From assembly GCA_051362555.1 (NCBI GenBank), contig CM120648.1, positions 10,598,587 to 10,662,586 of the forward strand: 64,000 nt of DNA. Reading direction: 5' to 3'. Below the pieces are notes generated by a model, which worked only from the letters and a program-made list of their open reading frames with translations, was not told the origin of the DNA and made no database searches. How positions within the stretch are numbered: the stretch's first letter is position 1; each line of letters opens with the position of its first letter. Position numbers and translations under genes: made by a program. The DNA comes from Lingula anatina (taxonomy: Eukaryota; Animalia; Brachiopoda). Shown here one piece after another: positions 1-59,980 of the stretch.

Positions 1-182
1 GGGTCCCTGATGAAAATGATCCTATAACGTTGTTTCTCGGTCAAGATGAAATCCATTTGAAGTAGATTAGCGAGTGTCTGGATTTTGTTCAAGTCAGTGA
101 GACCCGTTATTAGAGTTATGGACATTTGACGAATCCGCTGGTGTTTGCTGGAATTGGTATCTAGGATCAGTAGTTTAGCCAT
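1..182 (-). CDS. CARD-like single-domain protein, copy 1 (N-terminal half; runs off window start)
   Basis: Manual translation from ATG at 182: MAKLLILDTNSSKHQRIRQMSITLITGLTDLNKIQTLANLLQMDFILTEKQRYRIIFIRDP, open and colinear with 2433-2801. Confidence 0.8.
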   Translation of the reverse strand, partial: MAKLLILDTNSSKHQRIRQMSITLITGLTDLNKIQTLANLLQMDFILTEKQRYRIIFIRD

Positions 183-220
183 TTTCAGCTACTTAAGGGT
201 AGACCTGAACTGGATATTTA

Positions 221-1178
221 CTGCAAAAAAGATAGTATGTGTAATAAAAAAAAAAATAATAATTATTATTATTTTTATTATTTTTATTGAAAAAATAATG
301 AATAAATAAATAAATTAATTAATAAAATTAGACACCCTTAAAATTAAATAAATAAAGGATTCAAGTCAGTCGCTTAGAGTTAGAAAAGAATTCGTGAAGC
401 TACAGGTCTATTTAAAAATGGCCCAAGTTTAAGCAAAGAGTTATATTTATTATAAGTGTTAAGGAAAGACAGATCTTTAACCTTGATTCACCAAAAATTG
501 TCCATGCCATCAGTGTGCAAGGCAAGTGAGCCAAAGGGAAATTCCCTAATGCTACGTTTCTATTTTTAGCTAGCTCCAATAGAAACATGAAAGTAGGAAT
601 GCACGGTGCTGGCAATCAGTGACAAATATCACAGAAATGTACACAGAATTAGCTACCAGTGATCATAAATGTATGCAACCCCAGTACCTACATGTACATG
701 TGCACTCCACTGAATAGACTGAAAGTGTCAACGCCGATAATCAAAAAGTAGGCCATTTAGGCATAGCAAGGAGTTATAACATTCTGTTATAACTTCTTGG
801 GCATAGTGACCTACGTAGGCCTACATGTAGAGCATGAATTTGAAATGCTTAATGTTCATATTGTACTCAGTATTCACATGCAATAACTGCACATGTACCC
901 AAATCTTTGTCAAAGCATTGCTGCGCCTGCCTAAACATCCATAAAAATTGCATGAAACGTTTAAAATCTGCCCCAAAATTACGTCTTCGACATACAAAGT
1001 TGTAGGATGTGACAAGGATTCAGCTGGGATGCTCGCAAGGATGTTAATATATTTCGTGCAAGCTAGTTTTTCAGAAATTTGCAAATTGGCAGCTATTTAA
1101 GATGGTATGTTAAAATCTGACCTACCTAATTCAGTTCTGGCTCGCATATGTCAGTTCAAAAGTTAGTCGAATGCAGTA
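221..1178 (-). other. 5' UTR intron (221-1125) and short non-coding first exon of CARD-like copy 1
   Basis: Minus strand acceptor TTTTTTTGCAG about 40 nt before the ATG, and donor ATTAG|GTAGGT at 1125. Both are conserved at equivalent positions in copies 2 and 3. Confidence 0.6.
536..546. promoter_or_regulatory. NF-kB/Rel binding site
   Basis: GGGAAATTCCC matches the GGGRNWYYCC consensus; homologous intronic position in copies 2 and 3. Confidence 0.6.
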
Positions 1179-1274
1179 CTCATTATTTCCGACATGAAAT
1201 ATTATACGCAGCGACGAAAAACCCACGTGGTTGGAACCTACGTCATGCGTTTTTTTTTGGTCTAAATCGATGTT

Positions 1275-1310
1275 TGACGTCATTTCCAGCCCCACCGATG
1301 TTGACCAATC
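1275..1310. promoter_or_regulatory. CRE (TGACGTCA) plus CCAAT element upstream of the copy 1 first exon
   Basis: Perfect TGACGTCA at 1275-1282 and GACCAATC nearby. A paralogous block lies at about 12985-13085. Confidence 0.4.
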
Positions 1311-2077
1311 ACAGTACAGCAAATTTACTCCATTCATACTTTCACTCAACACTCAAGAAGTTCGCCAGGTAGCTTATTGACTATCTTTCTTATCGAGGAC
1401 AATGTGCGCTATTCACAAAATTATTCCCCTCCGTTAATCAACAAAATCGTTTTCCGTGATGTTGTTCAGTAGGTGTGGATAGTCTTTTGACGTTTTCGTT
1501 GGGGAGGTGGAAAGGCGAAGTGAGGATGGGGGAGCTGTGTCCGGATGACACGTCTGAGCATAAGTCTCTGTTGAATCGGCAGATCTACCCAAAGAGTGGT
1601 CGTTGCTCTAACACTTAGATAACAGAATGCATGCCCACTGCCCCGCCGCACGGTCGACTACCTCCGTAATGCAGATCGTCCCAACTTACAGTTGGCTAAA
1701 AGGGTAATTGTCACAGATATCACGTCTCTGGATAATTCAGGACACAATTCTCTGAGAAAAATACACATAATTTTTCTGCGGCCTCAGTAGAGAGTATAGG
1801 TCTATGAAGTGACTTAAGTCACAATGGACCAACACAAATTCGGGGTACGCGTTCACCACAGTTTCTCTTTCTCGTTACAGTGCACTCGTATATATCCGGA
1901 ATGTACATGTAGTCTAGTCATGAAATATACACTGAGCATTCCTTTGAGATTTTTGCAACAATTAGAGTATGCTATATAGATACGGTTTACCGGTATATGT
2001 TAATCGTGTTGCAGCTCCATCAAACTCCATTATTTGATGTGGCCATCCTTACTCCTTATAGATTCTTGTTGGCCCTG

Positions 2078-2432: not shown

Positions 2433-2801
2433 TTACATCTCCGTACACTCCAGAGAGAGCCGAGGACTGACGATTCCAAATTCCGTCACCACTGCCAGGT
2501 ACGATGACACTTGGCAAAGTGCTCGCAGAAAATCCTCAAACGCGGCGCGTCGCAGTCTCTCCGGCTGAGTGTCCAAGTAGGACAAGACGCACGACAGAAT
2601 AACAGACATTTTGCGCATAGGGTCAGTGATGAAAATGATCCTATAATATTGTTTCTCGGTCAAGTTGAAATCCATTTGAAGTAGATTAGCGAGTGTTTGG
2701 ATTTTGTTCCAGTCAGTGAGACCCGTTATTAGAGTTATGAACATTAGACAAATCAGCTGTTGTTCTCTGGAGTTGGTGCCCCTAATCAGTGGTTTAGACA
2801 T
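2433..2801 (-). CDS. CARD-like (death-fold) single-domain protein, copy 2, 122 aa, intact
   Basis: Intact ORF with a helical CARD-type pattern (LANLL..FNLTEKQ..RI..ITDP..K..VIL..VL...AFEDFLRAL.QVS.YLA). Four other paralogs in the window. Confidence 0.8.
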   Translation of the reverse strand: MSKPLIRGTNSREQQLICLMFITLITGLTDWNKIQTLANLLQMDFNLTEKQYYRIIFITDPMRKMSVILSCVLSYLDTQPERLRRAAFEDFLRALCQVSSYLAVVTEFGIVSPRLSLECTEM

Positions 2802-2862
2802 TTTCAGCTAATGAAGGGCAGACTTGAACTGGATATTTACTGCAAAAATGTAAATATGTGTA

Positions 2863-2897
2863 GTAATAATAATATAATAATAATAATAATAATAATA

Positions 2898-2948
<51 letters not shown>

Positions 2949-2950
2949 AT
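2863..2950. repeat. (AAT)n(ATT)n self-complementary microsatellite
   Basis: An AAT run switches to an ATT run. The same arrangement occurs at about 11688-11752. Confidence 0.9.
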
Positions 2951-3095
2951 GAGTTTTTTAATGTGTTAATAAAAGTAGACACCATTAAAATAAAATGAAT
3001 TAAGGATACAAGCTAGTCGGTTAGTGTTAAAAGAAGAATGCGTAGGTCTATTAAAAGTCCAAGCTACGTACAAGCAGTTAATCCAAGGTAAAGAA

Positions 3096-3106
3096 GGGAA
3101 ATCCCC
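3096..3106. promoter_or_regulatory. NF-kB/Rel binding site in the copy 2 intron
   Basis: GGGAAATCCCC (GGGGATTTCCC on the minus strand). Confidence 0.6.
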
Positions 3107-3636
3107 TTATGCGATTGACTTGGTGGTTGTTTTTAGCTAGAGTAAACATTAGTGAAATTACTGGCAATCAGTGCTTATATCTCACAGAACAGAAATGTCG
3201 ACAGAATTAGTTATCAATAATCATAAACACCCCAGTACATACATGTACATGTACACTTCACTGAATAGACTGAAAGCAACGTTAACGACAGACTTAAAGC
3301 TTGGAAAGCAACGCCGAAAGCAATAATTATGTCATTAAGTGACCTATATGTTGAACATATCAATTTCAAATGCTTAATATTCATATTGTATTTAATATGC
3401 ACATGCAATTACTGCACATGTGGCTAAAACGTTGCCAATGCTTTATCTCACCTGCCTTAACATTAATGAAAATTGCGCATCGTTCGAAATCTTGCAAATT
3501 TTCTTCGCCATGTACATAGGGCCTATAGTTAAGGCATACCAGGATGCTTTGCCGATTTGTGTGCATACATAAAGTGCGAGCTAGTTTCAAAATTTCAAAT
3601 TGGCAACTATTTAAAATGGTATGTTAAATCTGACTT

Positions 3637-3890
3637 ACCTAATTCAAATCTTGCTCACAGTTCAAAAGTTAATCAAATGCAGTGTTGTAATAACGTACAT
3701 GTATGAGAAGTAAAGTTACGTACATGGCTGCATGTGTATTATATAGGGGGCCTATCTAGGTCCTGTATATTCATTCTTGTTCAGGATTGGTTAAAGGACA
3801 CTATTGAATATGGTAATGCCTTGACGTCACGTTCTTCAGGCAGTCATAACTCAGGCGCAGCCTTGCAGCTGTTAATGTTCGTAACGTCAT
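3637..3890 (-). promoter_or_regulatory. First exon and promoter of CARD-like copy 2
   Basis: Perfect donor AG|GTAAGT at 3638 (intron 2840-3638), TATATAATA at 3737-3745, CCAAT at 3786-3790 (minus), TGACGTCA at 3822-3829. Confidence 0.55.
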
Positions 3891-4741: not shown

Positions 4742-5204
4742 GAATAAACCATACCTCAGTTGTTGCCAAGAGACATTGTTATGAGGGTCAAAACAAAGAT
4801 AATGAGTAATATTGTGATTGGTAAAAGAATCTTAGATAAATGACATTCCCGCCAGTTGTATTAAAATTTAAATACAGGTGTATGAGGAGGCTTAATAAAA
4901 TTTGCGACCCCTGCCCGGCACACCAGTATTTCATTTGCATTTCCAGGCCATTTCACAAAAATTCACCATAACCAAATTTATACAGTAAGTAAAACCTAGG
5001 TCACATTTGCCACTGGTGCCGCACGATGAAATTTTATACGAATTTCCGTACGATATTTTTTTTCACAGCTAGAAATAGTGAATGCATTTACAAGACATTT
5101 TACTCTACATGTAACCTTTTGTCATCAAGAGAATAGCGACTTTGCTGGCGTTATATACCTAGACAAATTTAAAATCTCTCACACTCTCAAAAATTACTCT
5201 CAAA

Positions 5205-5600
5205 AGTAAGCCGATAAATAATAACTACACGCAGTGACCTAAGAAACTCGCCCAAGAAAGACTGCTTGTTGTCGCAGAATGTGCCTACTGCAATCACAGT
5301 AGCAGATTACTTTGCTTACCCGTCCCCATAATCGAAGCGAGAAATGTGATCGCTGTGTAATCTTATTGATAATTGACGTTCCTTTTACTCCATAATGCAC
5401 CGGTACTTTTATTCATCAACTAGTTTGCCAGGTAGTTTATTGACCTGTTTTGTAACCTAGGACATTCTTTCCCACCGTTAGTCAATAAAAACACGTGCGT
5501 GATATTGACAATGTCAATAGGGCATGGGTATCAGATTTTTCCCGTTTTTACCTGTACAACCGTGCTCTGCGACACCTTTCTCAACTGTGAATGTAAGATA
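5205..5600 (+). pseudogene. Conserved ~350-bp coding-like module, copy 1 of 3
   Basis: Clear nucleotide paralogs at 18015-18305 and 25765-26110. The composite plus-strand reading is NVLTAITAAEHCAYPSPEKCDRCVILLIID..MHRYFHSSTSLPGSLLTWFVTEDI. Confidence 0.35.
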
Positions 5601-6239
5601 ATAAAAGAATTACCTAGCTGAGAAAACGATATTGAGCAAGGTGTCAATTCATAATTGTAATTTTTTTATCTGATAAAATGTACCATTTATTTCAAAGGAT
5701 ATCATAATTATACCCTAGTAGTAAAACGGATATTTTGAACAAATACAATACTCTATAAAACTATTAAAATGTCTCAATACTCGCTCTAACTGCATTTGAC
5801 AACGACGATGTTCCTCATTTACACTAACTCTTAAGATGTGATTCATTTTTAGTTTTATTAAGGGAATTGGTTGACTATTAATTGATGAATTAAATATTAA
5901 TTACTTCTAAGTGATTTATTGATAAATGAATTGCCTTATATATTCTAAAAATGTATTGTGCTCCTTTGTTTTTTTTAAATTTCACTTCAATTTTTTCATT
6001 TATATTTTATTTCATTTCATTATGTTTTATTTTATTCATATATTATTTTGATCCATTAATTAATTTATTGATTGATTTATTTAATGTCATTTATAGTTTT
6101 ACTTAATTTTGTTTTATTTTATTTCATTTTAAATTGTTTATTCATTCATTCATGTTTGTATTTATTTGTTATTTATTTTTACCGTAACTAGTGAAATTCA
6201 CCAGTCTCTATCTCCATTACTACAGTGTTTCAAAAATCA

Positions 6240-7265
6240 GCAATTTAACATTTGGATTTATAAGTCGAAATTGTGTTCCCGGTTTCGTGTATGTTCTACT
6301 GTAAATTTCAAAGATTTTGATTAAACTTCCTACTAAGTACAGTGTATACAAACAATTCGATCTAACTTATATTTTAGTCATTTTGCCTTTTGTATTTCGT
6401 ACCTTGACACATGACCAATGCACTATTATGACACGTATGATACGTGGCTTTAAGATCAGAAATATTGATCCATTTTTTTCTCTCTGAACGGGATATCTAA
6501 GCAAAAGAAGAAGTTTTTAAAGCTTATATTTTTTTCCAGACATTTGCCATTCATTGGGCATTTACTTTGTACTCTACAGTTGCAGGTTTTTATTTCTGAT
6601 ACATTATCAACAGCCCTCCAGTTATTTATCAAACTGTTGTTCTTAGCTTTAATGATTTTCGATATATTGTCCTTACAGCTATAGCTGACGTTAATGTCAT
6701 TTTTGTTAAAAATCTTATGTAACAGAGAACCTGCTGGGAAATGGAATTTAATAAGCTTTAAAAAAACTCTGCCGAAGTTAGTCTGTTGCGAGCTTTTATA
6801 GATTTTGTAGCAATGTTTGTATAATGGAGTTTGGGGTTGAAACCGACTGACTCGAGTGCTTCTGGTTCTCTTTAATGATTGAGACATGTTGTCGTCACTA
6901 GAAATAGTGGATAGCCTTGTGTTAATTAAGGTTGATATGACGTTGATGACACTTTCCGGGTGGTTAGGTTTGCGGTGTACATATACAGTAGTGCTGTGTT
7001 AGGTTTTTTGTAAGGTCAGAGGGATCCGTCGTTTAGGTTGAAGGTAACGTCTAAGAAGGTAACGTTATTGTGCGAGATGCTGGTTGTGATCTTTAATACA
7101 AGTTGCTTCATGATGGAGGTTAAATCCTTGGCTATCTTGTTGACGTTGAGTTATTTCTCAGGATAGCGAGGCCGTCGTCTCTACAGAGGCCAATTTCACC
7201 GCGAAATAATTCCTTGATTTTATCGAGTGAAAATAGACTGACAAGTTCACATGACTCAGCGCCGT
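6240..7265 (-). mobile_element. Penelope-like retroelement fragment (degenerate RT C-terminus and Cys-rich linker)
   Basis: Minus strand reads DGAESCELV, EIGLCRDDGLAIL, FLDVTFNL and TCNCRVQSKCPMNGKCL; frameshifted. Confidence 0.8.
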
Positions 7266-9800: not shown

Positions 9801-9843
<43 letters not shown>

Positions 9844-9987
9844 TATTTCCGTGCACTCCACAGACAGCCGAGGACTGGCAATTCCAAACTCCGTCACCAC
9901 TGCCAGGTAGGGGGAAACTTGGCGAAGTCCTCGAAGAAAATCTTCAAACACTGCGCGACGCAGTCTCTCCGGCTGAGTGTCCAAGTA

Positions 9988-11372
9988 CACACACTGGACA
10001 AAAGAAGTGTCACCCCTACTGAGCCAATACTATGGGGGAGATAAATGACTGTGGAATGATATGCTCCTGGTATCATTTTATTTACATCAAATTTCATAAA
10101 AAATCACAAAATGAGAACAAAATATACATTCTACCAAAATATGCAGTTTCAAGTCCAAAATTAGTACTTAGTGACATAGCCACGTGACCTAATAATAGGT
10201 GCCAGTCTACGAAGCAAGGTTTCATATAATTGTCTGATGCGTTCAGGGCTTATGCTGGCCCAAGCATGAAACACTGAATATAACAGAGTTTCTCTGCTGG
10301 TTAGACGGGCATTTGTCAAAAGTTTTGACATATCATTCCACACATTTTCTATTATGTTTGCATCCGGAATCTGGGCAGGCCACATCACCCTGCGAATGTC
10401 CTGTTGGTCAAACCAATCATCAACTGCTCTGGGCCTGTGACAAGGAGCATTGTCATCCTGGTGAACATATGGATAATTCCTGTCACCAAACATGTTAGTA
10501 ATAGATGGTAGCAAGCCTGACTCCAAAACATCGATATATTTCTAGTGATTCATGTTTCCATTAACCACTATCAATTCGCCCAAGCCATGGATGCTGATGC
10601 AGTCCCACACCATGATGAATATGCTGCTCCGGGTTCGAAAATTCAGTGCATGTGGTTCAAATGCTTTACCAGCAGTTTGCCAGCATAGTACCCGTCTGTC
10701 ATCAGAGGTCAGACCAAAGCGACACTCATCAGAAAAATATATAGGACCAATTGTCATGAACTGTCCAGTTCCAGATCCTGTTGACCCTAGTTTGCTCTAC
10801 GTTGCCTGTTTTGTAACGATATAAGAGGTTTCAGTCTTGCTACCCTGCTGTACACTCTCTGAGCATGTAACCGACGCCTAGCAATTTTCACAGACACATT
10901 CTTATGTGTGAAATTGTTCCACTGTGTTGTCAACTGACAAGCAGTGTCGAACTTTGACAACCTGGACATCAAAATCAATCGTCGGTCTTCACGGCCAGTA
11001 TTTTTTCTTGGACGACCCATCAGAGGCAATTTGTCTCTTGATCCAGTGTTTCTGTACCGAGACCAGACCCTCTGCACCGTTCTGACTGAACAATTCAATT
11101 GTATCGATATTCTGACGTTGCTTATATTCCGCCTCTTCAGGTTAATAACTTGCACCTATAACCGTTAGATAATTGCCTGTATCTTGCCATATTGGAGGAA
11201 GACAGGAATAACATTTGCTGTACATGTACAAGACCAACAATACAATTCAATGGTATAGCGGTTTTATACTCATTAGTCACATTATAAGTAGACCAGGCAT
11301 TATAAATACCCATGATCTGCCTACTTTTATTACTCTGAGTTAGGGGGTGACACTTCTTTTGTCCAGTGTGTG
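9988..11372 (-). mobile_element. Tc1/mariner DNA transposon, 1385 bp
   Basis: Perfect 29-bp TIR CACACACTGGACAAAAGAAGTGTCACCCC; TA duplication at 9986-9987 and 11373-11374. Confidence 0.95.
10161..11190 (-). pseudogene. Frameshifted Tc1 DD34E transposase
   Basis: Paired-like HTH region with GRPRK, then FSDECRF, QDDNAPCH and PDANIIENVW with 34 residues between D and E. Broken across several frames. Confidence 0.92.
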
Positions 11373-11685
11373 TAGGACAAGACGTACGACAGAATTACAG
11401 ACATTTTGCGCATAGGGTTGGTGATGAAAATGATCCTATAACGTTGTTTCTCAGTCAAGATGAAATCCATTTGAAGTAGATTAGCGAGTGTCTGGATCTT
11501 GTTCAAGTCAGTGAGACCCGTTATTAGAGTTATGAACATTTGACGAATCCGCTGGCGTTTTCTGGAGTTGGTGTACCTAATCAGTGGTTTAGCCATTTTC
11601 AGCTAATTAAGGGCAGACTGGAACTGAAGATTTACTGAAAAAAAAAATAGCATGTGTGATAATAAAAAAAAAAAAATAATAAAAA

Positions 11686-11727
<42 letters not shown>

Positions 11728-12055
11728 TATTATTATTATTATTATTATTATTGAAAAAAATAATGTATAAATAAATTGATTAATAAAGTTAGACACCATT
11801 AAAATGAAATGAATAAAGGATTCAAGTCAGTCGATTAGAGTTTAAAAAGAATGCGCAGGTCTATTTAAAAATGGCCCAAGTTCAAGCAAAGAGTTATATT
11901 TATTATTAGTAAGGAAAAACAAGTCTTTAACTTTGACTCACCAAAAACTGCCCATGCCATCAATATGTCAAATCAAGTAAGCTACATCAGACCACGGAAT
12001 TATATCGGATATAATTCCCTGATCAGACTGCATGTAGTTGAACCGAAGTCAAAAA

Positions 12056-12066
12056 GGGAAATCCCC
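12056..12066. promoter_or_regulatory. NF-kB/Rel site in the copy 3 intron (intron 11635-12621)
   Basis: GGGAAATCCCC at the position homologous to 536 and 3096. Confidence 0.6.
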
Positions 12067-13411
12067 CTACCACCTGACTAACTTACATTGTACGTCATCT
12101 CAAAGGTCAACATCAAAATGATGTGTAGTCTAATTAATGCCCGAATTAAGTGACTTAGTAATCAGTGCTTAAATCTCTCAGAACAGCAATGTGGCACAGA
12201 ATTAGTGATCATGAATTATAGTACATACATGTACATGCACTCTCCACTGAATAGACTGAAAGCAACGTTAACGACAGACTGAAAGTTTGACAAGCTACCG
12301 CATAGTGACCTACATGTTGAACATGTAAATTTGAAATGCTTTATGTTCATATTGAACTCAGAATCCACATGCAATAACTGCACATGTACCCAAATCTTTG
12401 TCAAAGCATTGCCGCACCTGCCTTAACATTAATAAAATTGCACGAAATGTTCAAAATATGTCGCAAAACTATAGGCCTATCTTCGTCACATACATGTGTA
12501 GGATGTATTAAAGATTCAGCTAGGATGCCCGCAAGGATGTTTATATATGTCGTGCAGGCTAGTTTTTCAGAAATTTTGCAAATTGTTAACTATTTTAAAT
12601 GGTATGTTAACTCTGACCTACCTAATTCAGTTCTGGCTCGCATATGTCAATTAAAAAGTAAGTCGAATGCAGTAGGCCTAATAACCCAGTCGCTCTATTG
12701 AACATGATAGTATAGTGCGTGCCATCTAGGTCAGGTCACGAACAATCGTCGGGATTGGTCGAGGACAACGTTTGCGCTAGTCACGTGCAATTGTGTCTCA
12801 CATCAATTCATGAATGAAATTCACGGTTAGATTAAGCACTGTAGGCACCACGTACGTAATTGTTCGTTTGCTGATCCAAGCACATGAGCTTTGATTTCAA
12901 GGTAAAAAAAGACTCAATTACAGTGTACATTCACATACATTCCCATATTCCATTTGTCAATAAAAGAGAAAAATGAGTTTTTGTCTAAATTGATGTTTGA
13001 CGTCCTTTCCAGCCTCACCGATGTCGACCAATCACAGTACAGCAAATTTACTCCATTCATACTTTCACTCAACACTCAACAAGTTCAGTCTTTTATGCTA
13101 AGGGGCCCCAAAAATTTTTGTTGATTGGAGGGGAAACAGTACCCATTGGTACGGTTTAAAACGATTAATTGTAATTTCAAGAGGGGAATATATAGTGGTG
13201 ATATTTTTTCGGAAACCGAAGGGGGAGTCAGGATCCCCCTGACCCACCCTCTAAATAATAATAATAATAATAATAATTAAAATACGGTTCAAGTTCAAGC
13301 AATTATTAATTATTATTCTTTGCACTTAAAAAAACCCTAATTCATCAAAACATTCCGTGCCGTCAGCGTGTATAGCTATAAGTCGTACATTCCATTCGCT
13401 CTAGTTAAGAA

Positions 13412-47544: not shown

Positions 47545-47554
47545 GTTCGACCAA

Positions 47555-47856
47555 CAGTTAAACAATGTCAATATGACAGGCACAGACTGGTGGCGTAAAA
47601 ATAACATTAGATAATTTCATATCCATATTAGTTTGAGTATGCAAAGTAACTGCACTTGGGAGTCGAGACGTTGTTAATGCATGCTTATAGTCCCACCTAC
47701 CACAGATAAAGCCTGCATGTGTAAACATATAGTGTAAATAATTCCGAATGTTCACAGATGCATGCGCAAATGCAGTGTTTACTAGTTATAGTTTGCGAAT
47801 AAACAATTTGATATATGTTAAACCTACCTCATTCACTTCTGTGTGTAGCTCTTTTT
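47555..47856 (-). pseudogene. Orphan intron/first-exon module of the CARD-like family
   Basis: TAACTGCAC...CTAGTT...TATGTTAAACCTACC parallels 880-1130. Confidence 0.4.
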
Positions 47857-48359
47857 ATTAACCTTTTTCATCTTTTGCGGAAATACGAAGTGCGCATGAG
47901 GGGACGCGCGCCACAGGGGTCATGGTAGCTCCTCTGCTGTTTTTAGCATGACAATGCTAGGTGTAGATGATGTACAAGGTGCGCATATAAAAAGGTCGTT
48001 CGAAGCGTGCACTGCTTTCTGTCAAACTAAAAAGGTGGCTGAAGCACAGAAATGCGTAAACTGTAGGCAAGACAACAGCTATTTGGAAGGAGAATCAAGC
48101 AATTAAATATTTTCTTTCTCAGTTTAAATACGATGCGCTGTACAACTAGACTTCACCTAAGCGTCCGAGCCTTGGCTGCACTTTCAATAGTGATGATGAA
48201 CTAAAGCTTCAGAGTTCTTTTAAATGCTTCCGATAATAAAGATATGCGCACGAGACTCGTTATTTTTTTATATATAAATTATTATTATTATTATTATTAT
48301 TGTTGTTATCATTTATTTATTTATTTTTATTGTGATAATAGGTCTAGATTGTACTTAAT

Positions 48360-51300
48360 CATGGACCTAACTAGAGAAGGACAAGAAACGCGGCATCTTC
48401 CTTTGAAGCTATGTGCGTTCGGGTAAACATTCGCCTATTGTCTCACATAATCTGTTTTGATAGCTCCACGGGCGTCTGAACAGCTTATTATCAAGGTAGC
48501 GCGCGCTGTGCTTCAGTGCATTTCTATTGTTTCTCTGCATTGATAACGCAATTTCTCGCAGTCCCTCGTGGTTGCTATGATACAGCATTGCCGCCATCTT
48601 GCAGTTGCGAGCACACAGGTTTCCGTCAACAGGTGGAAATTTATTGAGGGGTTTTCGGCATTTTTCCCCGTTACCTCATAAAAACGGGGTGTGAAGTTTG
48701 TCTTCAATACCTGCTGCCTTTCCCTGTCCGTGAGGTAGTCTCTGACAGGACAGGAATACGCACCCAACGACCGGAAATCTCATTCCTACATGTACCAGTA
48801 GCTGTGACACCCCGGAAGATCAATCAAATTTACACAAGAACTGACTGCTGGTGAATCAGACAAATTAAAAATGGACCTTTTTAGCATGTTTGTGAAATTA
48901 TATATTACCATTAGGGGCCACTCATTTCGCAGACAGCTTAAAGAAAAGTACCAAGAATCTGTGTCTGCATCTACGAAAGAAAAAGGATTGAGAAAGTCTC
49001 TCAAAAGGAAGAGTAGAATTACAGCTTGAATTATTACCTAGATTTTCAACGAACAGACAGTATAATCTTGTGCATTTATAACATTTGGGTTTTTTCACTT
49101 AGCAATTAAGATCTTAATTAGAAATTTCATCTAGGTTTACATTAATTTTAATTAGTTATTTAAAAGTCAGATTTGTCGTATTTGTTTGGTAGAAAATAAT
49201 ACACCAGGTACCAAAATATGGCTTTCTGTTTTCAGTAACTGAAAAGCAGTCATAATTCAAGAACTTATTATAAGTATAATATTTGGTTTTTCAGTCAGCA
49301 ACTATCTTTCATTTATATTTCGTTTTATTTTTCATTAAAAGTTACCCGTTTACAATATGAGATTAATTTCACCAATACTGATCTTATGGTAATAAAAAAT
49401 GCATATATTTGACATAAAAAATCTTCTTTTTATTTCTTTTCACTTCCTTTTTTTTACACAACTTAATATATCATAATAATAAAAGATTTGACAAATAAGA
49501 CGCATTTCACTGCAAGAGGGTCAAAGTCAAATGTGAGTATGAATTTTATCAGGATCAGATTTTTTAAACCTGTAGTTAGTGTATTCTGAGGTAATTGAAT
49601 ATGCAATTTCAATCAAGCAAGAAAAAACTGTCTAAACATATAATCCATGTTTTTTACATTTCATTTTTTTTTCATTATAAGATAGCAAATATAAAACAAC
49701 TTGAGTACATTCCAATATTTATTATTAAAAAAGTAAACATTAAAAATGCTTGTTACAAAGCTAGTGATGATGAATATACAATACATGTGCAGTTTTCTTG
49801 TCTTGTCTTTTTTTTGTGAAAGTCATGTTGGAGTTCTTAAAACTTATTCATAAAAGGTATAAACTAATTTCTTATTGACCTATGTGAATTATTGTCCAAA
49901 TGTTTAATTAGTGCGTCTCCTCTTGGGCAATGGTGCATTGTCTTATTTTAACTTTCCGGCATCTTGTGAAGAGAATCTGGAAGAGAATAAGAATGTTTTT
50001 ATCACAAACTACTATAAATGAAAATTGCCTTTTTTACTTCTACTTGGACATTTGAGCCACAGGTTAGCCTTATCAAATGCATCTCAAGATTCTACCTATC
50101 AGGTAGATTTTCCCTATAGTTAAATTTACTTCCCTTGTTAGGCATGGACTTTCTAGATCATTATCAGCCAGGTAACTAAACCGTCTGGCCCTTTGTTGAT
50201 TTGATAAAGCCAGCTAGGTGCTATCTAAAGGCATGTCTCAGGATTATTTCAAAGATTTCAAGCACCTGATAACAAGATAATGCAATGTAGCAAGGCAATT
50301 ACAGAGGTGAGACTCTTATCACAAATGTGATCAAGATCTACTTTTATGACCATTACCTAAATAAATATAATCATGAACTTTGCATGTGTACATGTCCACA
50401 TATACACTTTCACTATAAGACCAATGAGGGTGTTTGTCAATCGTCTTTATTCTGTTTAGGGAATCCAATTTAAAAATGAAAAACTATTAATTATCATTCT
50501 CAAACTGGAGCAGACTTTAGCCGGTCATGTGAATATACATATATATATGAATATAGTGTTAATGTCAACTTTGATAAAAGGATATTTAAAGAATCACAGG
50601 TGCGTTTTTGTGTGTCAGAATTGCATGGGTGGTGCCATATTGCAATGATAGCCCATATTGAGAGTTAAAAAAATAATAATTATCATTCTCAGACCGGAGA
50701 TGACTGTAGCCGGTAATGTGTAAATATATATATACTTCAGAGCAGTGTTAATGTCAACTTTGATAAAAGGATATTAAAAGAATCACAGGTGCGTTTTTGT
50801 GTGTCAGAATTGCATGTGTGGTGCCATATTGCAATGATAGCCCATATTGAGAGTAAAAAAAATAATAATTATCATTCTCAGACCGGAGATGACTGTAGCC
50901 GGTAATGTGTAAATATATATATACTTCAGAGCAGTGTTAATGTCAACTTTGATAAAAGGATATTAAAAGGATCACAGGTGCGTTTTTGTGTGTCACAATT
51001 GCATGTGTGGTGCCATGTTGCAACGAGAGCCCATATTAAGAGTTAAAAATATTAATTATCATTCCATAATTCGGGCTCACTTCAGCAAGTAACATAAACC
51101 TATACATATAGTACACAGCGGTGTTGATGCCACCTTTATCTAAACCGTACGTAAAAAATACCAGACCTAAAACGATGTCGGCGAGTCGAATAAATCGCAG
51201 AGGAATTGCGTCATTTTAATTCAAAACACGATTTGAGGTTAAATTATTGCCGCATCTAAGGCTAATTCTTTACAAAGAGGTAAAATTTCGAGACTAGAAA

Positions 51301-51712
51301 TATTTTTCTATCGGATCATAGCTAAAGACAAGTATTCGACACTGCAGTTGTACAATTTTAAACACTCATTTTACAGCAACAAACACGATTGCCTTCACCA
51401 TATTGGGCATTTTGAATTCCTCCATGAACAAACATATCCTTATTCTCATCTAGCATCCAAAATAGCAAAAGAAATTGTACTTACATTTTATCTCTATAAG
51501 TGTCTTGACTCATCCACCCGAACGTTTTCCTCGCGTTATCACCAGCTACCTGTTCAAATGACACAAAAAGTCATCAACAGCCGCGATATGCTCGCTACCT
51601 GTACGGGAGGTCACGTGATCCGAACGCACATCGTTTCGCGAAGGTCTCGCGCTAAAACGATTATCCTTTGATCTTTCTCCGCGTTACTTGTCCTTCTCTA
51701 GTTAGGTCCATG
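48360..51712. mobile_element. P-element-like transposon, copy B (3353 bp)
   Basis: Same TIR as copy A, different 7-bp duplication ACTTAAT; almost identical to copy A. Confidence 0.8.
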
Positions 51713-51717
51713 ACTTA

Positions 51718-51720
<3 letters not shown>

Positions 51721-51787
<67 letters not shown>
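51721..51787. repeat. (TA)n microsatellite
   Basis: Direct reading; a similar tract lies at about 54365-54435. Confidence 0.95.
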
Positions 51788-51788
<1 letters not shown>

Positions 51789-54362
51789 AGTAGTTTAGAG
51801 GGCCTGCAAAATGTACTGAAACATTTTAGTGCTCAATAAAATTATTATTATTATTATTATTAAAATCAAATAGCCAGTAGACTCGTACACAGCTTTCAAG
51901 AGTGTGGACAGGTGCGTAGGCCTATGTCTTCACAATATTACATGTATATATGCAAGCTGTGGCGATATCACCTCATTTACCGGCAGTATCAATTCATAAC
52001 GATTTTTATGTCTTGTTTGAAGGATGTCTTAAGAGATTTTTGAAATGATAAAATGAAAAGATTCCCTGCATTGTTTGACTAGTGCCTACTGTGTATACAG
52101 GTAAAACTGACACGCAGATTGTTCGTCGGTGAACTGATTAAATCGTTTGGTACCTGATAAGGCATCAGGTGTTACTTGTTCAATTGTTCGGTAAGGGGGG
52201 CGGCCACAACTACGACCTTTCCTCTGTAATTAAAACCTTCTAATTTTAAGTGTTAAATAGGCGAGACAGGAATTCTCGACTCTTTCCCAGACGATAATTA
52301 AAGTTTACCGTGTCTTACTCTAGTATATGTACAAAATTTACGACAGGTAAAAAATGTCAGACTTTCGGTCTGACAAGTATGAAAATTTTGTGAATGAAAA
52401 CTGAAACAAAACCGTCAGGCAATGGAAACTGAGACAAAACCGTCAGGCAAAACAAATTATAGCAAGAGGCCAAATTATTTGATTTTTGAATGTTTTCATG
52501 CGTATTTTCATCGTTTTCAATCAAAGACAATAAATCATTCAAATAAAGTGTTTTCCACACATTTCATACTTTCAACTATCTAAGACAGTTAAATATACGT
52601 AGGCCTTCTTTAATACTAAGCATATACTGTATGCATTAGTTTACAAATACATTGTTAGATTATTTTTATTATCAATTTTGTCTTTACCATACATGTAGCA
52701 CGTGTAGCTTACAGAAAGGCTTTTCTGCATTTTTTTGTAAATAACAATATATGCCCATTGAATTTTCTTATTCTTTTGTCATTGAGTTCAGAAATAAATA
52801 ACTTTTTTATTTTGCCGATAACGCGTTCAACAAGAGCCGATGTACTTTCTTCTTCGTATGTCTCTGTTGATCTTGATAATATGAATCCCGTTTGCACATG
52901 TACAAATCAGTAATACGTATACGGGATTGGACACATAATAATAAAAATTTTATTAACGTCTCACGTTTAAAAAAATAGAACCCACCCTACTAAGGGTTAT
53001 GTGAGACTAAAACCTGTGATAGGCCTACTACATTTAAAATGATCACTTATTAATAAAACACACACAAAAAGGATATTACATACAAAACTTTTCAAACCTT
53101 CTCTTTGTTGTTACACAAATAGTCGTGAAAGTTCTTGAATTTTTTGTAAGTAGAATCCCCGTGTAAAACTTCACAGCTTTTACTTTAATTCTTTTTTCAT
53201 AATCTCATGCTTAAAGTCTTTTCTTTCTTTTTAGGCCCCTATTCTTCAATTTTTTCTTCAGATCTTTATAATGTTTTTTTCTCACATTGTTTACCCCCGA
53301 GTTCTATTTGCCGATAGTTCATTATATCCGTTGATTAACTAAGCATTTCTGTTTTTTATTAAAGCACCGTTGACCTCCTAATATTATAGTTTTTCTTCCC
53401 GCCTTCGAAATGTTCAGCGCAAACGCGGTGCCCTGCTTTTATATTTTCCTTTCTTTCTACTATATTTTTCATTCTAACGGGTTTGTTGGGAACTTATTAA
53501 ACCTCATGTGTCGATCTCGCTTACTGTTATTGTAGCAGCGGGACAAAAAGCACGTAAACCCAGCCATGGTTTTTAGCACCGCTGTAAGTGTTTCGACATA
53601 GCAGGGCTCCCCTACCCACAAAGCAATTTTCATTTCCGGAAAAGATGAAAAAGGTTAATTTGGCGTATTCTGTCTGGCAGCTCAAAAATAAGACGGTGTC
53701 TTCTATTTTCAACTGAAATGCTGATCAGAAATAATTGCAAGGGTAAATTGCCACGCCACGGGCCAAGTTGGCCCCAGGATCGGGACAAGTTGGCCCCCTA
53801 TAGGAAAATGCAATAAGTATCCCATGTAAACGCCTTGAAATACATTTTTTTATCAAATTGATTTTTGAGAGTCTTTGATGAATAAGTGGCTCAAATGAGG
53901 CAGATATATTGAGGGTTCTGTACGTTACGTTGTATGCGTTGCAAGAAGCAAAATATCTATTAGTGAAACTTTTGTTTTAATTAAGAATAAACTAATAATG
54001 GTATAAAGTAGGTTTTAAGTGAATGAGACACGAATAACATTTCTTTTTTTTTTTTTTTTTTAAATCTCACAAATTCAATCTTAAACTGTTAAATATTTAA
54101 GAAACTATTGACTTTGCTTTAACAATGAACTGTAGCTCTGTTGCGCGAAAAGGATTGTGGTCTACATAAGGGTCCAGCTTGCCCAGAGTCAAGGGAACCA
54201 ACTAGCCCCGGGTGCACATTTTTTATTTAAAAAATTGCAGCCATTATTGGTGCTAAACTGAACAACGATGAAACATTTCTGTGAAACTTGAAACAATGAG
54301 CTTTAGTTTGGTGCCCTATACATAAACCATATTAAATCAAAAGCCCATGAAAATATAAATTT

Positions 54363-54440: not shown

Positions 54441-56189
54441 TCTCTTTAATAAAAGTACTATAAGATGCATCATTCTTTCATTTGGACTCACTGCTTAAGT
54501 AAAATTCGGTATTATTGGGTACAGTCGATACAGTCGATTTACAAAATGATGTGATCAATTTTTTTTATTCCAGTTTATTTTTTCATAAATTGATGGGGGG
54601 GGGGGGGGACTTTCCCCGGTCTCCCGTAATTAAGTATCGATCATTCAACATCAAGCTAAGCCTAAGGTTGACCGGTTCTATTTCCCAATGCGCTTTTTTA
54701 CCCCGAAATATATCTATTATTGTCTTTCTTACTATTATAGTAAAATTCCTTATGATGTAATAAAGATAAAAGCCCACCTTAAAGAAGCAATTTCGATGTT
54801 CTTTTTTTATAGCCATCTTGTTGTGGTGGTCACGTGACACTGGTTTGAATAATTCTTGGTCACTGACCTGAGACGGGGCACAGAAAAGGAGTCCAGACAG
54901 TCTGCCAGCAAGCTTTTTTTTGTATTATAAAAGCATATTTGGGTCAATACATCTAAACTGGCAGGGGCAGATCCAAGATTATTTGAAGGGGGGGGGGGGG
55001 GGGGGTTCGCGGATGCGAAGCCGTTTCTCACCCGTGGGGTTCGTAGCCCGCAAACAGGCACTAATTTTTTTTTTGATTTTTTAGAGGGCGAACGGTGCCA
55101 TTTGGCAATATTTAGAACTATGATCCTGCTAGAGAAATTTCTTATTTCTTTATTTCAGCAGGGGGTTAAGGACCCCCCGACGCCCCTCTAAATCCGCCAC
55201 TGTACATGTATATCAACATAAGTAGTAAGTAAAATTATATCACGGATGAGGGGTCCACATTTTTATATTAATTAAGAAAAAATTAATCCACTTAGAGAGA
55301 AATTTTACTTGCCCCCTCTGCTGGCTGCCCTTAAGACTGACGTGGTGGAAAACTATATATAGACTTGTGTAAGTGCACTGTTAATGGATTGGCCATTGCT
55401 TTAGTGGTCAGAAGAGCAAACTACACGTAGGCCTACATTTCTGAGGTTTTTACGTAGACTACATATTGTTCGTAAATCTTGAAAAATTAAAAAGTGAGAG
55501 AAATCGAAGTAATTGAACCTGATCTCTTTTTAAATCCGCCACTGATATTTAATATCGTTTTTTAATAGGCCAGCCAACTTAAGATAAATGACCTTCAAAT
55601 CATTGTTTAAAAATTCAGACATAATCTTAGTCAAAAAGGGACCTACAAAAATGGACTTTGTGATAACATAAGCGTAACGCCACTCTTAAACGTTTTCTTT
55701 ATTATTTTATTGAGACAAAAAAGGATGAATTCAGTCCAAAATATATCAGTATAATCGCGTCATTAAAATTTCAGAAAGGTGTTTTTCTTTAAATTTCAGA
55801 AACTTTTTTTTGCCACAACGTTCAAGATGGCAATCAAAAACAGACTCGGTGTTAATTTTTTTTACCAATCAAATCGCGCTTGACTTAGAAAATCAACTAA
55901 TCAAAGGCGAACCGTTCCTGATTCCTCGACAGGGGTAACTAACCTTTGTCCAAGATGAGCTTGACGTACAGGAAATAAGAAACTTCTCTCCATTAACGGT
56001 GACCCACTACAAAGCCCCTAAACCATTATAATTGTTACTCCACCGGCTAAAGCTGCACCCACAACAAGGGTTGGTCAGTGTCTTGCACTAGCAGGATGGG
56101 CCCGCTGATGTCACTGGCGGTTGGGTGACAGGGGCACCTGCCTTAATTTGTAACATTAATGTAAAACTTTTGCTTTCTTCGCTTTTCCC

Positions 56190-56345
56190 TATACCAGGTG
56201 CTTTGCATGCGTATTTAATGCACGTATTTCGGATAATTTGCAAATTGGCATTTTTTTGCGCTTAAAACAAAACAGAGATCTGTTAAACTTGATTTACCTT
56301 ATTTAGTTCTGCCTCTCAGCTCAAAAATTAAGCAAATGCCGTAGC
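56190..56345 (-). pseudogene. Orphan first-exon module of the CARD-like family
   Basis: ATTTGCAAATTGGCA...TGTTAAA..TACCT...AGTTCTG..CAGCTCAAAA parallels 1075-1175. Confidence 0.5.
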
Positions 56346-56504: not shown

Positions 56505-56730
56505 TCTAGGTGAGAAGCCACGTCGGCTGTACAACTTACACCTGTTCAGTCACACCTTAGTCTATAAAAAAGTCTGTTTAGTAGAATCGGGAGTAGCAGA
56601 ATGCGGGAATCCACAGTGTTTGGACTTGGATGACATTTGATGAACTTCTTAGGTTCAGGTTAACGTTATTCTGTGATTATCTGACCTGCGCAGAAGACCT
56701 TTAAATGGCGTCTTAATTTTTTTACCCAAT
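56505..56730 (+). pseudogene. Family B fragment, copy 4
   Basis: MRESTVF/WTWMTFDELLRFRLTLFCDYLTCAED. Confidence 0.55.
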
Positions 56731-57829
56731 AATTATTATAAATAGTTAGAAGAAATAATAAAAACAGATTATGTGAAACATAAAATGAATTTTATCAATC
56801 ATGAAGCTTATTGTCGGACATATCCACAGATATTACTGCAATATAACCCTGCTGGTATACAGATCTGAAGATCTCAAATGCGGTACCGAGTACCTTTCAG
56901 ACACCGACTGTTAAGATGTTGATAGTAATATGTATAAAGTACCGGTAATAAAAACATCACTAAACTTGTGTGTCAGCAACGGTTTACCCTACCCCCCTCC
57001 CGTTTTTGAACTCTTCCGAAGCAGAACGATTTTTACCTGCAGCACATATATGAGCTGGGCAGTTTTACTATCATTTAAAAAACACGTCGACAATATAGTG
57101 AAAAGAGCCAGGAAAAGAACTGGGCTCCGTATCTCGAAAGGTTCGCTATGTTGCGCACATGCGCAAGCGTCTCGATTCCATAACCGATTCTATTTCGAGA
57201 TACGGGGCCATGGAATCGAGACGCTTGCACACGTAAAATTTTGGTATAGGAGGTATAGGAGGCAAACGGTGCCATTTGGTACGATTTAGAACTATGATTC
57301 TGCTAGTCAAAATTCTAATTTCAAGAAGGGCCAATTAATGTGAATTTTTCAGAAATCAAAAGGAGTCAGGACCCCCTGACACTCCTTAAGTCCGCCACTG
57401 ATTTGCCAATGATATATGTTACATTCAGAGTTATTCTATTCTGTTCTGTCTACCCTTTTATTGGTTTTTAGGAATTTTAATTAAATTGTGTTGCATTTTT
57501 GTCGATTATATTTCACCTCCAGTTGTACCCAGTACATAGAAATTAACATTTTCATCCATACATGGTATTTCAGACAAATGAATTATTAACTATATGTATG
57601 GATTTATTCATTTATTCCTATTCCAATTTTTTTCATATTTCTAATAAGAATAAACTAGTATCTCTCTCTTTAGAAGAAAAACTGCAGAACAGCAATATTC
57701 ACCCAAACATAACAGTCTAAGCCTACAGCACCCTTTCCACTAATTAACTTTTGCTCCTCGTGATACTTTCTTTCCTTCAAACAACTCGACTGTCAACTGA
57801 GATATACCAACTAGCTATTTATTTGATTC

Positions 57830-58835
57830 GTTCTTAGATTGCACTTTTCGCTGCATTATCTTTCAGCTGCAATAGCATACCCCCTGTAGGTAAATGCTCC
57901 ACACAAAACATCTATTGACCGATATTCTTTATTGCATTCATGCCACTTACGGGTAATGTAGTAACTATTGCATGTACAAATATAGTGTTTACACAGAGTT
58001 TGACGACATTAAATGGATTTATGAGGATAGGTATTCACGCTATTTTCTGATTATTTGATCTGCACAGAGGGACTATAAATGGCGTCCCAGTTCTTTTACC
58101 CGAGCCGATAGAATTTAATTTATGAAGTATCTAATTTTTTTTTTTTACAAATGGACTCATCAACAGGCGTGTACAGCTGCTGTAAACGTCATCTAGATTT
58201 ACTGTTGCTTCAAATACTTTAACCAGAGAGACAAAACTGCATGATGAAGGTATTCACGTTGAGGAGACATTTCAAAACAAATATGGATCCTCACGTAGCT
58301 ACCGGTACATGTACTGGCAGGCCCGTAGCCAGGGGGGGTTCGGGGGGTTAGAAAGAACCGCCCCTTTTGGTGGGAAGAGGTCCCCTCTGAGTGAACTTTG
58401 ATCTAGGTACATGAAGTTTTTTTGGGAAAAGGTCCACTTATTCAGAAAAAGAACTCCCCTTTTGAAATTACTGGCTACGGGCCTGTACTGGTGTTAAAAA
58501 GTTTAAAAGCATAACAGTTTAACCCTGGTATTATAGTATATATATAGCGGTTTAAGTATATACTGAATATTGGTGCTATATACTTGTAGGGAACTACGAC
58601 TGTGGTAGGGTGGTAGAAAGCAGAGAGATCCAGTGTGAGAGGTTAGTTGAAAATGTTTGCCTTTTGTACGAGAGATAATTGAAAAGATTTCGAACTTAAC
58701 CCCAGTAATCAGTAAGTGAGGAGAATATGATGGTTTTCTCTCTGACCCAAGATCTTCATGCCCAAATGTTCACATCCCTCTTCGATTTCGTGGCATTTTT
58801 ACCTTACGTTCATTGTGTGACTACCCATTACATAT
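57830..58835 (+). pseudogene. Family B pseudogene copy 5, interrupted by a MITE
   Basis: LHDEGIHVEETFQNKYGS..NYD..VESREIQCERLVENVCL..KDFELN..QDLHAQMFTSLFDFVAF. Confidence 0.6.
58318..58485. mobile_element. hAT-like MITE with 6-bp target duplication
   Basis: TIR CAGGCCCGTAGCCAG...CTGGCTACGGGCCTG flanked by TACTGG on both sides. Confidence 0.8.
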
Positions 58836-59647
58836 GACCTTTATTATGTCATTCTATATCAAACTCATTCTTATACCTCATTTAATAACTTAATTCTTAT
58901 CATGAACCTACAACATCATCATCTACTTCATCCAACGTGCCACAAAGAAACAGCTTGTTGAAACCAGCGTTAATGATTGAGTGACACATTTCAACAACAA
59001 AGTTTTGAACTGACAAATAACTGGTATTGCTACGTTGCAATCTGTCATGTAGGAGATGAGGGAGGCAATTCATGATTGACTGACTATGCTTCAAAAGGCT
59101 TCAAAGTTGTTCATTTTTTTAAATCAACACGCTTTCAAGAGCATAGCTATTCGTAACCATTTTCCTAAATATTTCAATTGCTGTGTAATTTAATATCTGT
59201 CTAGTTTTTAAATGGATCCAGTTTTAAATTTGAGCCCCCAGAGCATTTTTTAAATTCAGTTTATAGGGGTTGAAGGCTTTATTGCAAAAGGCGAAATCTT
59301 CTGCACCTTTTACAATATTTTTGGAAAGTGAATTGTGGCTAATTGTGTGACCCGTGAGCTATTTTGAAATGAGACCAGTGCAATTTTGGATTTATCGTGC
59401 ATTGGAGTTTTCCATTTTCAACATTACAGCTGACTTTTTAATACCAGTGATTTCAAAATGCTGTAGAAAGGTCTATTTCCTGGCGTTTGTTATAGAATCC
59501 AATTTAATCGAGTTAATTATGGAAAGTTAAATTCTATTATGTATCAATCGAGTAAGTAATATCAAGTATGCTATTTGTTTTTATAGTTTCTAATAATAAA
59601 AAAACTATCACCTATTTGTTTTTTTCATTAGTATTAATTGTTTAATT

Positions 59648-59980
59648 TTAGATAGTCGAGTGTTGACCTAAAGCATTTGTAAATAAATGTTTATTTCCCC
59701 ATATAGATTTCGCAGCGCTCCGTATGAATTCTAGTCCTTTACTTTGTTTTAAAAATCCACATTTAGGAAACCATCTGGCGTGTTCTCTCGAAGGTTCATC
59801 TCCCACTTCCCAACTCTTCAACCCGCCGTTGCAGAAAAAAACACACTTCACGTTGTCGTTAAAACCCGCGTAGAAAAAGCCTGCCTCTGCGAGCGACGCC
59901 GGCGTCTTATCTTTTTCGGGAGGCCACTATTCGAAGGTTGATATTCTGGCGTGAATTCACATTGTCATTAAAACCCGCGT
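59648..59980 (-). pseudogene. BIR-domain (inhibitor of apoptosis) pseudogene, no intron in the visible part
   Basis: [67 protein letters not shown]: a complete BIR signature with an in-frame TAG and one extra residue in CxxC. Confidence 0.9.

What the first reader, a model, noticed from the sequence alone, without database searches (positions are those of the whole stretch)
1..59980. Candidate undescribed immune or virus-derived cluster: CARD-only genes interleaved with US22/SUKH-like genes and a BIR gene
Seen: once transposons are removed, almost the whole window is a repeating patchwork of minus-strand CARD-like genes or their relic modules and mostly plus-strand beta-rich pseudogenes, ending in a BIR gene, with kB sites throughout. 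Established: stand-alone CARD proteins and US22 proteins are encoded by ranaviruses, BIR proteins by baculoviruses and malacoherpesviruses, and US22-like genes also form lineage-specific expansions in some animals. Inference: this is either a captured accessory-gene block of a large DNA virus or Polinton-like element, now amplified under host NF-kB control, or a host birth-and-death cluster of death-signalling modulators. No viral hallmark gene (capsid, polB, packaging ATPase) is visible in this window.
Basis: partly seen in the sequence, partly recalled or inferred. Interest (0 to 1): 0.85.

Follow-up and report, generated by a model that had tools for sequence, protein, structure and literature searches.

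The report
Orphan CARD-like-only gene cluster, brachiopod
This is an animal chromosome stretch, likely from a lamp shell (Lingula), with five copies of a small gene that had no database match and is predicted to fold like a cell-death signalling domain, likely switched on by NF-kB as a brake on immune signalling; the proposed viral origin and US22 genes were not confirmed.

Summary
Part real, part over-read. Real: five minus-strand copies (three intact) of a 122-aa ORF in 1-30.6 kb, kept by purifying selection (dN/dS 0.28-0.39, no indels), with no sequence homolog found (0 hits in 1.84 billion proteins) but a predicted death fold (top 13 Foldseek rows are CARDs; low-confidence model). The BIR is a broken single-domain relic, 84% identical to a Lingula anatina IAP. 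The plus-strand family C is a decayed repeat with almost no coding signal and no US22 match; it forms a separate block (32-59 kb) and is not interleaved. Recognisable modules make up 15% of the span. No viral hallmark was found, and the two other individuals laid on 29.9-44.2 kb carry long collinear pieces at about 94% identity. Best reading: a host birth-and-death cluster of CARD-only-like decoys, analogous to primate COPs, likely NF-kB-inducible. RNA shows an expressed relative, not these copies.

The parts
1..182 (-). A1: 5' part of death-fold ORF, runs off the window edge
221..1125 (-). A1 predicted intron 1 (905 bp), with kB site at 536-546; acceptor at 221, donor after 1126
   Evidence: motif conservation; no spliced reads tested here
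1126..1400 (-). A1 predicted exon 1 and promoter (CCAAT, CRE-like and E-box motifs); 1255-1363 is 94% identical to 12978-13086
   Evidence: inference
2433..2801 (-). A2: intact 122-aa death-fold ORF
2840..3638 (-). A2 predicted intron 1 (799 bp), with kB site at 3096-3106
5201..7256 (-). Decayed mobile element, second copy at 25767-27905 (87%); Penelope-like by my recall only, no Pfam hit
9842..9988 (-). A3 3' piece
9989..11371 (-). Tc1/mariner-like transposon with terminal inverted repeats, inserted in A3
   Evidence: DDE_3 and HTH_Tnp_Tc3_2 hits; ends
11372..11596 (-). A3 5' piece (pseudogene)
11635..12621 (-). A3 predicted intron 1 (987 bp), with kB site at 12056-12066
13412..13857 (-). Orphan B relic: donor after 13820, kB site 13412-13422, no A exon
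20938..21004 (-). Duplicated 3' end of A4, part of the tandem duplication 20583-21002 / 21006-21402
21352..21720 (-). A4: intact 122-aa death-fold ORF (the copy that was folded)
21756..21987 (-). A4 predicted short intron (232 bp, donor AAG|GTAAGC), no kB site
   Evidence: inference
24669..25062 (+). Inverted orphan B relic with donor near 24710 and kB site at 25053-25062
30157..30525 (-). A5: intact 122-aa death-fold ORF; the only copy whose frame is open back through the acceptor
31087..31305 (-). Diverged B module of A5 with kB site at 31091-31101; donor not found
32101..38031 (+). C1: decayed family-C copy split by a high-copy DNA-transposon array with inverted ends (32385-37592)
   Evidence: the two halves are contiguous in one X6 contig
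38499..39400 (+). C2: decayed family-C copy with several frameshifts and stops
43043..43844 (+). C3: decayed family-C copy
44193..53659 (.). Nested repeats: two 99.9%-identical 3.35-kb elements with inverted ends (44193-47544, 48360-51712) beside and inside an inverted copy of the 32385 element
56134..56344 (-). Orphan B relic (donor after 56298), head-to-head with C4
56477..56753 (+). C4: partial family-C copy
57949..58857 (+). C5: family-C copy interrupted by a short inverted-repeat element (about 58296-58500)
59693..59956 (-). BIR pseudogene fragment (in-frame stop, one extra codon, no UBA or RING part in the window), 84% identical to Lingula anatina XP_013393218.1
60740..64000 (-). LTR retrotransposon pol (RT, RNase H, integrase; Gypsy-type order), open frame of 1086 aa

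Best explanation
Family A is a tandemly amplified host gene family under purifying selection whose 122-aa product is predicted to be a single death-fold (CARD-like) domain, and it likely acts as an NF-kB-induced decoy that binds CARD-bearing caspases or adaptors and dampens their assembly. Shown: repeated ORFs, codon-level constraint, a conserved kB motif, conserved donor and acceptor motifs, loss of copies to transposons, and RNA from a relative. Predicted: the fold. Inferred: the two-exon structure (non-coding exon 1, kB-bearing intron 1, single coding exon), NF-kB induction, and the decoy role (by analogy with primate COPs and POPs; the six CARD-bearing caspase-Y paralogues reported for Lingula are candidate targets). 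The unit promoter-exon 1-intron-ORF was duplicated repeatedly; partial duplicates left orphan B modules. Family C and the BIR fragment are dead neighbours in the same duplication-prone region, not parts of a working system.
For: dN/dS 0.39, 0.39 and 0.28 over 122 codons among A2, A4 and A5, with no indel at 75-78% DNA identity; 0 stops in 493 in-frame codons against 2-27 per window in the other plus frames. Fold: five helices in the model; Foldseek ranks 1-13 are CARDs or a CARD-templated design; 44 of 50 VIA rows are death-fold chains by my reading of their titles, best Z 6.8, rmsd 4.4, 101 aligned, to cIAP1 CARD; the highest-probability viral row is also a CARD (E=2.2). An in-frame TAG three codons before the ATG in 4 of 5 copies makes the domain stand-alone. 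The kB motif aligns in A1, A2, A3 and A5 although the A5 flanks are diverged. A donor AG|GTA is kept in 6 of 6 B cores aligned. The BIR is host-type. Long collinear contigs at about 94-95% identity in two other studies; up to 9 distinct contigs overlap single A5 positions, pointing to more copies elsewhere. RNA run X14 has 10-25 reads per listed site across the A5 ORF.
Against: The model is weak (pLDDT 51.7, pTM 0.42, 4-row alignment). No Foldseek row has E<=0.001, and Z under 8 is in the range the tool calls common. Pfam CARD, Death, DED and PYD do not hit. CARD versus DD, PYD or DED is unresolved: FADD DD scores Z 6.5. Three RNA runs show essentially no reads on A4 or A5 at >=90% identity. 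The X14 reads carry non-window letters at the listed ORF sites (25 of 25 reads at 30283; 12 of 12 at 30329, these with 14 or more other differences), so at least some come from a paralog, and expression of these copies is not shown. No splice joint for A is among the listed joints (161 were not shown). A4 has no kB site. A2 versus A3 gives dN/dS 0.74 (74 codons). No binding partner was tested, and a lone CARD could nucleate rather than block signalling.
Confidence: 0.6

Rival explanations
1. A is a host stand-alone death-fold family but works as a positive adaptor or filament nucleator that amplifies NF-kB or caspase signalling, or has a non-immune role.
For: All sequence and fold evidence above fits equally. 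From my own knowledge, human CARD16 can polymerise and activate, and viral CARD protein E10 activates NF-kB.
Against: A single domain with only a short tail has no second interaction module; described CARD-only and PYD-only proteins mostly inhibit (PMC7555848, passages seen).
Confidence: 0.17
2. The block, or family C at least, descends from accessory genes of a large DNA virus (CARD plus US22), later amplified and placed under host promoters.
For: A is a sequence orphan with one coding exon. US22-like genes in Branchiostoma and other animals are attributed to integrated herpesviruses (PMC3113570, passage seen). C keeps a faint plus-strand coding trace in one segment (2 stops in 149 codons, pN/pS 0.48). 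B and C sit head-to-head twice (31.3/32.1 kb and 56.3/56.5 kb). By eye some C fragments resemble US22 motifs that I recall; that is not a test.
Against: No US22 or SUKH hit in 12 read-through frames or in 29 C fragments; no homolog among 713 candidates; no PDB match below E=0.8; no viral hallmark; none of 187 viral-contig stretches is a relative of A; the BIR is host-derived; A has splice motifs; A and C are not interleaved.
Confidence: 0.1
3. A is the terminal CARD exon of a larger multi-domain gene (receptor, adaptor or IAP), and the window's copies are exon duplicates, most of them truncated.
For: All copies start with an acceptor 35-38 nt before the ATG, and A5 is open through that acceptor. 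Primate COPs are thought to have arisen by exon duplication (PMC7555848, passage seen).
Against: A TAG precedes the ATG in 4 of 5 copies, including two under constraint; a donor with promoter-like motifs lies 0.2-1 kb upstream; a profile search that has no length limit found nothing. The 'longer' word search was not run for A.
Confidence: 0.1
4. The death-fold call is an artefact of a poor helical model, and A is an unrelated helical protein.
For: pLDDT 51.7, no significant E-value, no Pfam hit.
Against: Two different aligners return almost only death-fold chains at the top.
Confidence: 0.05

Closest known systems
Primate CARD-only proteins (CARD16/COP, CARD17/INCA, CARD18/ICEBERG) and PYD-only proteins
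   Same: Small single death-fold proteins, lineage-restricted, arisen by local duplication (PMC7555848, passages seen).
   Different: COPs resemble the caspase-1 CARD and lie beside the caspase cluster. A has no detectable parent in any library searched, so homology with COPs is not claimed, and no caspase gene is in the window.
Viral CARD proteins (iridovirus CARD-only, equid herpesvirus E10)
   Same: Lone CARD; they appear as weak fold matches (lymphocystis virus CARD, prob 0.51, TM 0.45/0.55, E=2.2).
   Different: No better than cellular CARDs; 18% identity; A has splice motifs and no viral context.
Lingula anatina BIR-RING IAPs (XP_013393218.1, XP_023930975.1)
   Same: 83-84% identity over 88 aa of the BIR.
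   Different: The window holds only a broken BIR; the N-terminus, middle and RING are absent from it.
US22 / SUKH-5 family (PF02393)
   Same: By-eye resemblance of C fragments only.
   Different: No profile, homolog or structure support; C shows almost no coding constraint.
Lineage-specific expansions of death-fold and IAP genes in sessile marine invertebrates
   Same: Duplication and turnover in brachiopods and molluscs (PMC8195603, PMC13159474, passages seen).
   Different: The passages I saw concern multi-domain or IAP proteins, not a stand-alone orphan death fold with an intronic kB site.

Membership tests
Death-fold superfamily | Helical Greek-key bundle superposable on CARD, DD, DED or PYD | tested here: met
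   44 of 50 VIA rows and the top 13 Foldseek rows; low-confidence model, best Z 6.8; the sixth helix was not modelled as a helix
CARD (PF00619) | Sequence-profile match at the gathering threshold | tested here: not met
   No CARD hit at E<=1 for A2, A4, A5 or the two A3 pieces
CARD (PF00619) | Structure closer to CARD than to DD, PYD or DED | tested here: inconclusive
   Foldseek favours CARD; in VIA, cIAP1 CARD 6.8 and FADD DD 6.5 are tied
CARD-only proteins (COP type) | Whole product is one death-fold domain | tested here: met
   122-aa ORF, residues 7-114 covered by the fold matches, in-frame stop before the ATG in 4 of 5 copies; A5 is open upstream
CARD-only proteins (COP type) | Derived from, and similar to, a caspase or adaptor CARD | tested here: inconclusive
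   No parent found; the species' proteome could not be searched directly
CARD-only proteins (COP type) | Binds a partner CARD and modulates signalling | not tested
   No partner sequence in hand; no complex job was run
US22/SUKH | PF02393 or SUKH profile match | tested here: inconclusive
   No hit, but only frameshifted fragments of 22-77 aa and single-frame read-throughs could be scanned
US22/SUKH | Four-helix, six-strand SUKH fold (PMC3113570) | tested here: inconclusive
   Only a 56-aa fragment was folded; it came out all-helical, pTM 0.34, and is uninformative
US22/SUKH | Intact protein-coding gene | tested here: not met
   All copies broken; 22 of 100 indels are multiples of three; no codon periodicity
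BIR / IAP | PF00653 match | tested here: met
   69.7 bits against a cut-off of 22.9
BIR / IAP | Intact gene with start and downstream domains | tested here: not met
   In-frame stop; no tblastn match to the rest of P0005 or P0008 in the window at E<=1
Endogenous large DNA virus / Polinton | Capsid, polB, packaging ATPase, terminase or element integrase | tested here: not met
   No such family in the frames scanned; only transposon genes. Holds for this window only; frames under 58 aa and the flanks were not examined
NF-kB target gene | Conserved kB site near the gene | tested here: met
   Aligned in A1, A2, A3 and A5; absent in A4
NF-kB target gene | Rel binding and induction on challenge | not testable with these tools
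   Run treatments are not given; no binding data

The most novel reading that the evidence does not exclude
A brachiopod independently evolved an NF-kB-driven battery of CARD-only decoys from a death fold with no detectable parent, possibly captured from a large DNA virus together with a US22-like gene (family C) that was once transcribed divergently from the same promoter: a domesticated viral immune-modulator pair turned into a host feedback brake.
Probability: 0.1. Interest if true: 0.8.

Novelty: new member of a known kind. Interest (0 to 1): 0.42.

Why it matters
CARD-only decoys are described mainly from primates and viruses. A constrained, multi-copy family of this kind in a brachiopod, with no match in the protein libraries searched, would show the same regulatory solution arising again in a lophotrochozoan, and would give a ready test: does a lone death fold under an intronic kB site damp the CARD caspases of Lingula? 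It also shows that profile-based immune-gene surveys can miss such families.

Tried and rejected
Sequence homologs of A: word search, 4 candidates and none scored; profile against 1.84 billion representatives, 0; PDB sequences, only GGA1 at E>=0.47; viral contigs, 0 of 187; hhalign to IAP P0002, nothing. The ESM Atlas gave no answer. Family C: Pfam, homolog search with a chained fragment alignment limited to proteins of 147-2000 aa, PDB profile (best E=0.84 to herpesvirus gB, treated as chance), viral-contig scan not possible, fold of a 56-aa fragment uninformative. No US22 reference set could be obtained for a profile-profile test. One search listed no RNA holder; I did not count that as evidence. 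B as a coding exon: no codon signal. Self-tblastx was too noisy to use. In one search the rows for A1 and the A3 3' piece were out of frame through my coordinate error and are dropped; A1 was redone. No whole genome is held, so co-occurrence at other loci and the flanks are untested. No complex prediction was run, because no partner was in hand. Earlier scan notes: nothing. Literature searches that found no description of this family: Lingula anatina+CARD+immune, US22+Lingula (0 papers). The library lacks most subscription papers, including a Lingula immune-gene survey that I recall (Gerdol et al. 2018, not seen). No supplements were read.
Full report
Setting. The window is AT-rich animal DNA (GC 30-42%) with microsatellites and transposons; no whole genome is held. 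The BIR at its right end is 84% identical over 88 aa to a Lingula anatina BIR-RING IAP (XP_013393218.1), so the host is likely Lingula; this is an inference from one gene.

Map. Self-comparison and profile searches give three local families. A (minus strand): five copies and a 3' relic, all in 1-30.6 kb. B (same strand as A except one inverted copy): seven copies, four directly upstream of A1, A2, A3 and A5, and three orphans (13.6, 24.7, 56.1 kb). C (plus strand): five full or partial copies, all in 32.1-58.9 kb. A and C are adjacent blocks, not interleaved; they meet only where B sits head-to-head with C (31.3/32.1 kb and 56.3/56.5 kb).

Family A is a real gene family. A2, A4 and A5 are intact 122-codon ORFs, 66-71% identical to A4 in protein, with no indel and dN/dS 0.28-0.39. 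A3 is split by a Tc1-like element, and A1 is cut by the window edge. No homolog was found by word search, by profile against 1.84 billion proteins, in PDB sequences, in viral contigs or in Pfam. The AlphaFold model is poor (pLDDT 51.7), yet Foldseek ranks 1-13 are CARDs or a CARD-templated design (E 1.0-3.9), and 44 of 50 rows of an independent aligner are death-fold chains by my reading of their titles (best Z 6.8 to cIAP1 CARD, 6.5 to FADD DD). No single match is significant; the enrichment is the evidence. Death fold is well supported, CARD specifically less so.

Gene layout. Every A copy has a pyrimidine-rich acceptor (CAG) 35-38 nt before the ATG, and four of five have an in-frame TAG three codons before it, so the domain stands alone. 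B carries a donor AG|GTA in 6 of 6 cores aligned, which gives predicted introns of 905, 799 and 987 bp for A1-A3; A4 has its own candidate donor 232 bp upstream. B shows no codon signal and has CCAAT and other promoter-like motifs upstream of the donor. I read B as promoter, non-coding exon 1 and intron 1. This is inferred from motifs; no spliced read was seen.

kB sites. Seven distinct loci against 2.1 expected (0 of 200 shuffles reach 7). Four align at one position in the introns of A1, A2, A3 and A5, two follow orphan B relics in the same order, and the seventh is at the end of a G-run. They are therefore copies of one ancestral site, and the shuffle test overstates their independence; the informative point is that the motif survives in A5, whose flanks have diverged. 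A4 has none.

Family C. All copies are frameshifted; 22 of 100 pairwise indels are multiples of three and substitutions show no codon periodicity. Of 30 frame-by-window tests, one plus-strand segment has few stops (2 of 149) and pN/pS 0.48: a faint trace that fits an old pseudogene, but one minus-strand window has a ratio as low (0.46, with 14 stops). No US22, SUKH or other family matched 12 read-through frames or 29 C fragments; no homolog among 713 candidates; no PDB match; the one fragment folded was uninformative. C has low contig depth at >=80% identity compared with the neighbouring transposons, so it is not a high-copy repeat.

BIR. One domain with an in-frame stop and an extra codon; no other part of the Lingula IAPs is in the window. 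It lies about 300-800 bp from an LTR retrotransposon. It is a host IAP relic, more like the last BIR of the three-BIR Lingula IAP (66%) than its first two (47-48%). No viral BIR was compared directly.

Viral origin. No capsid, polB, ATPase or terminase family appeared in 34, 37 and 139 frames scanned; the only significant hits were the BIR and transposon genes. Runs X3 and X6, from other studies than X1 and X2, hold collinear contigs at about 94-95% identity over 29.9-31.8 kb (X3) and 39.2-40.7 kb (both), and one X6 contig (84-87% identical, allele or paralog) joins the two halves of C1 without the 5.2-kb insert. The region is thus ordinary, polymorphic host chromosome. An ancient viral source for A or C cannot be excluded.

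Expression. Three RNA runs from three studies gave essentially no reads on A4 or A5 at >=90% identity (6-25% of each run read). At >=80%, run X14 gave 10-25 reads per listed site across the A5 ORF and none in the bin upstream; the reads differ from the window and some by 14 or more letters. A relative is transcribed; these copies are not shown to be. C has about one read of depth or less.

Mechanism and comparison. The closest working analogy is the primate COP/POP set: small single-domain proteins that arose by local duplication and bind caspase-1 or ASC (PMC7555848, passages). Lingula is reported to have six CARD-bearing caspase-Y paralogues and CRADD (PMC11463336, passages), which are plausible partners. 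I therefore propose an NF-kB-induced decoy (confidence 0.6), with activator, viral-capture and exon-of-a-larger-gene rivals. Papers seen as passages only: PMC3113570, PMC11463336, PMC13159474, PMC7555848, PMC8195603; all others as search listings.

Verdict. A new, unannotated member of a known kind; the trio 'CARD + US22 + BIR' as one viral or functional unit is not supported. Interest 0.42.

Noticed in passing
window 44193-47544 and 48360-51712: Two 99.9%-identical 3.35-kb elements with inverted ends and no Pfam hit in their frames, 815 bp apart, one nested in another transposon: recent local jump or assembly duplication.
   Followed up: partly
window 32385-37592: Head-to-tail partial repeats (99%) of a high-copy element with inverted ends that splits C1; absent from one X6 contig.
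   Followed up: partly
window 60740-64000: LTR retrotransposon pol with an uninterrupted 1086-aa frame, probably young.
   Followed up: no
window 59960-59985: A short duplicate of part of the BIR coding sequence sits directly upstream of the BIR relic, in place of the IAP N-terminus.
   Followed up: partly
window 8851-9329 and 39601-40049: A 70%-identical AT-rich module (E) follows both A3 and C2; role unknown.
   Followed up: no
window 21937-22085 and 24476-24625: Inverted 81%-identical pair that covers the predicted A4 promoter and the region upstream of the inverted B relic, suggesting a local inverted duplication.
   Followed up: partly
window 41877-42700: Very high-copy repeat with hundreds of RNA reads of depth in X14, nearly all running on into unlike sequence.
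   Followed up: no
runs X16-X19: Runs with the same species label hold next to none of the words of 29900-31300, while X3 and X6 proved about 5% diverged: high polymorphism or a species complex.
   Followed up: partly
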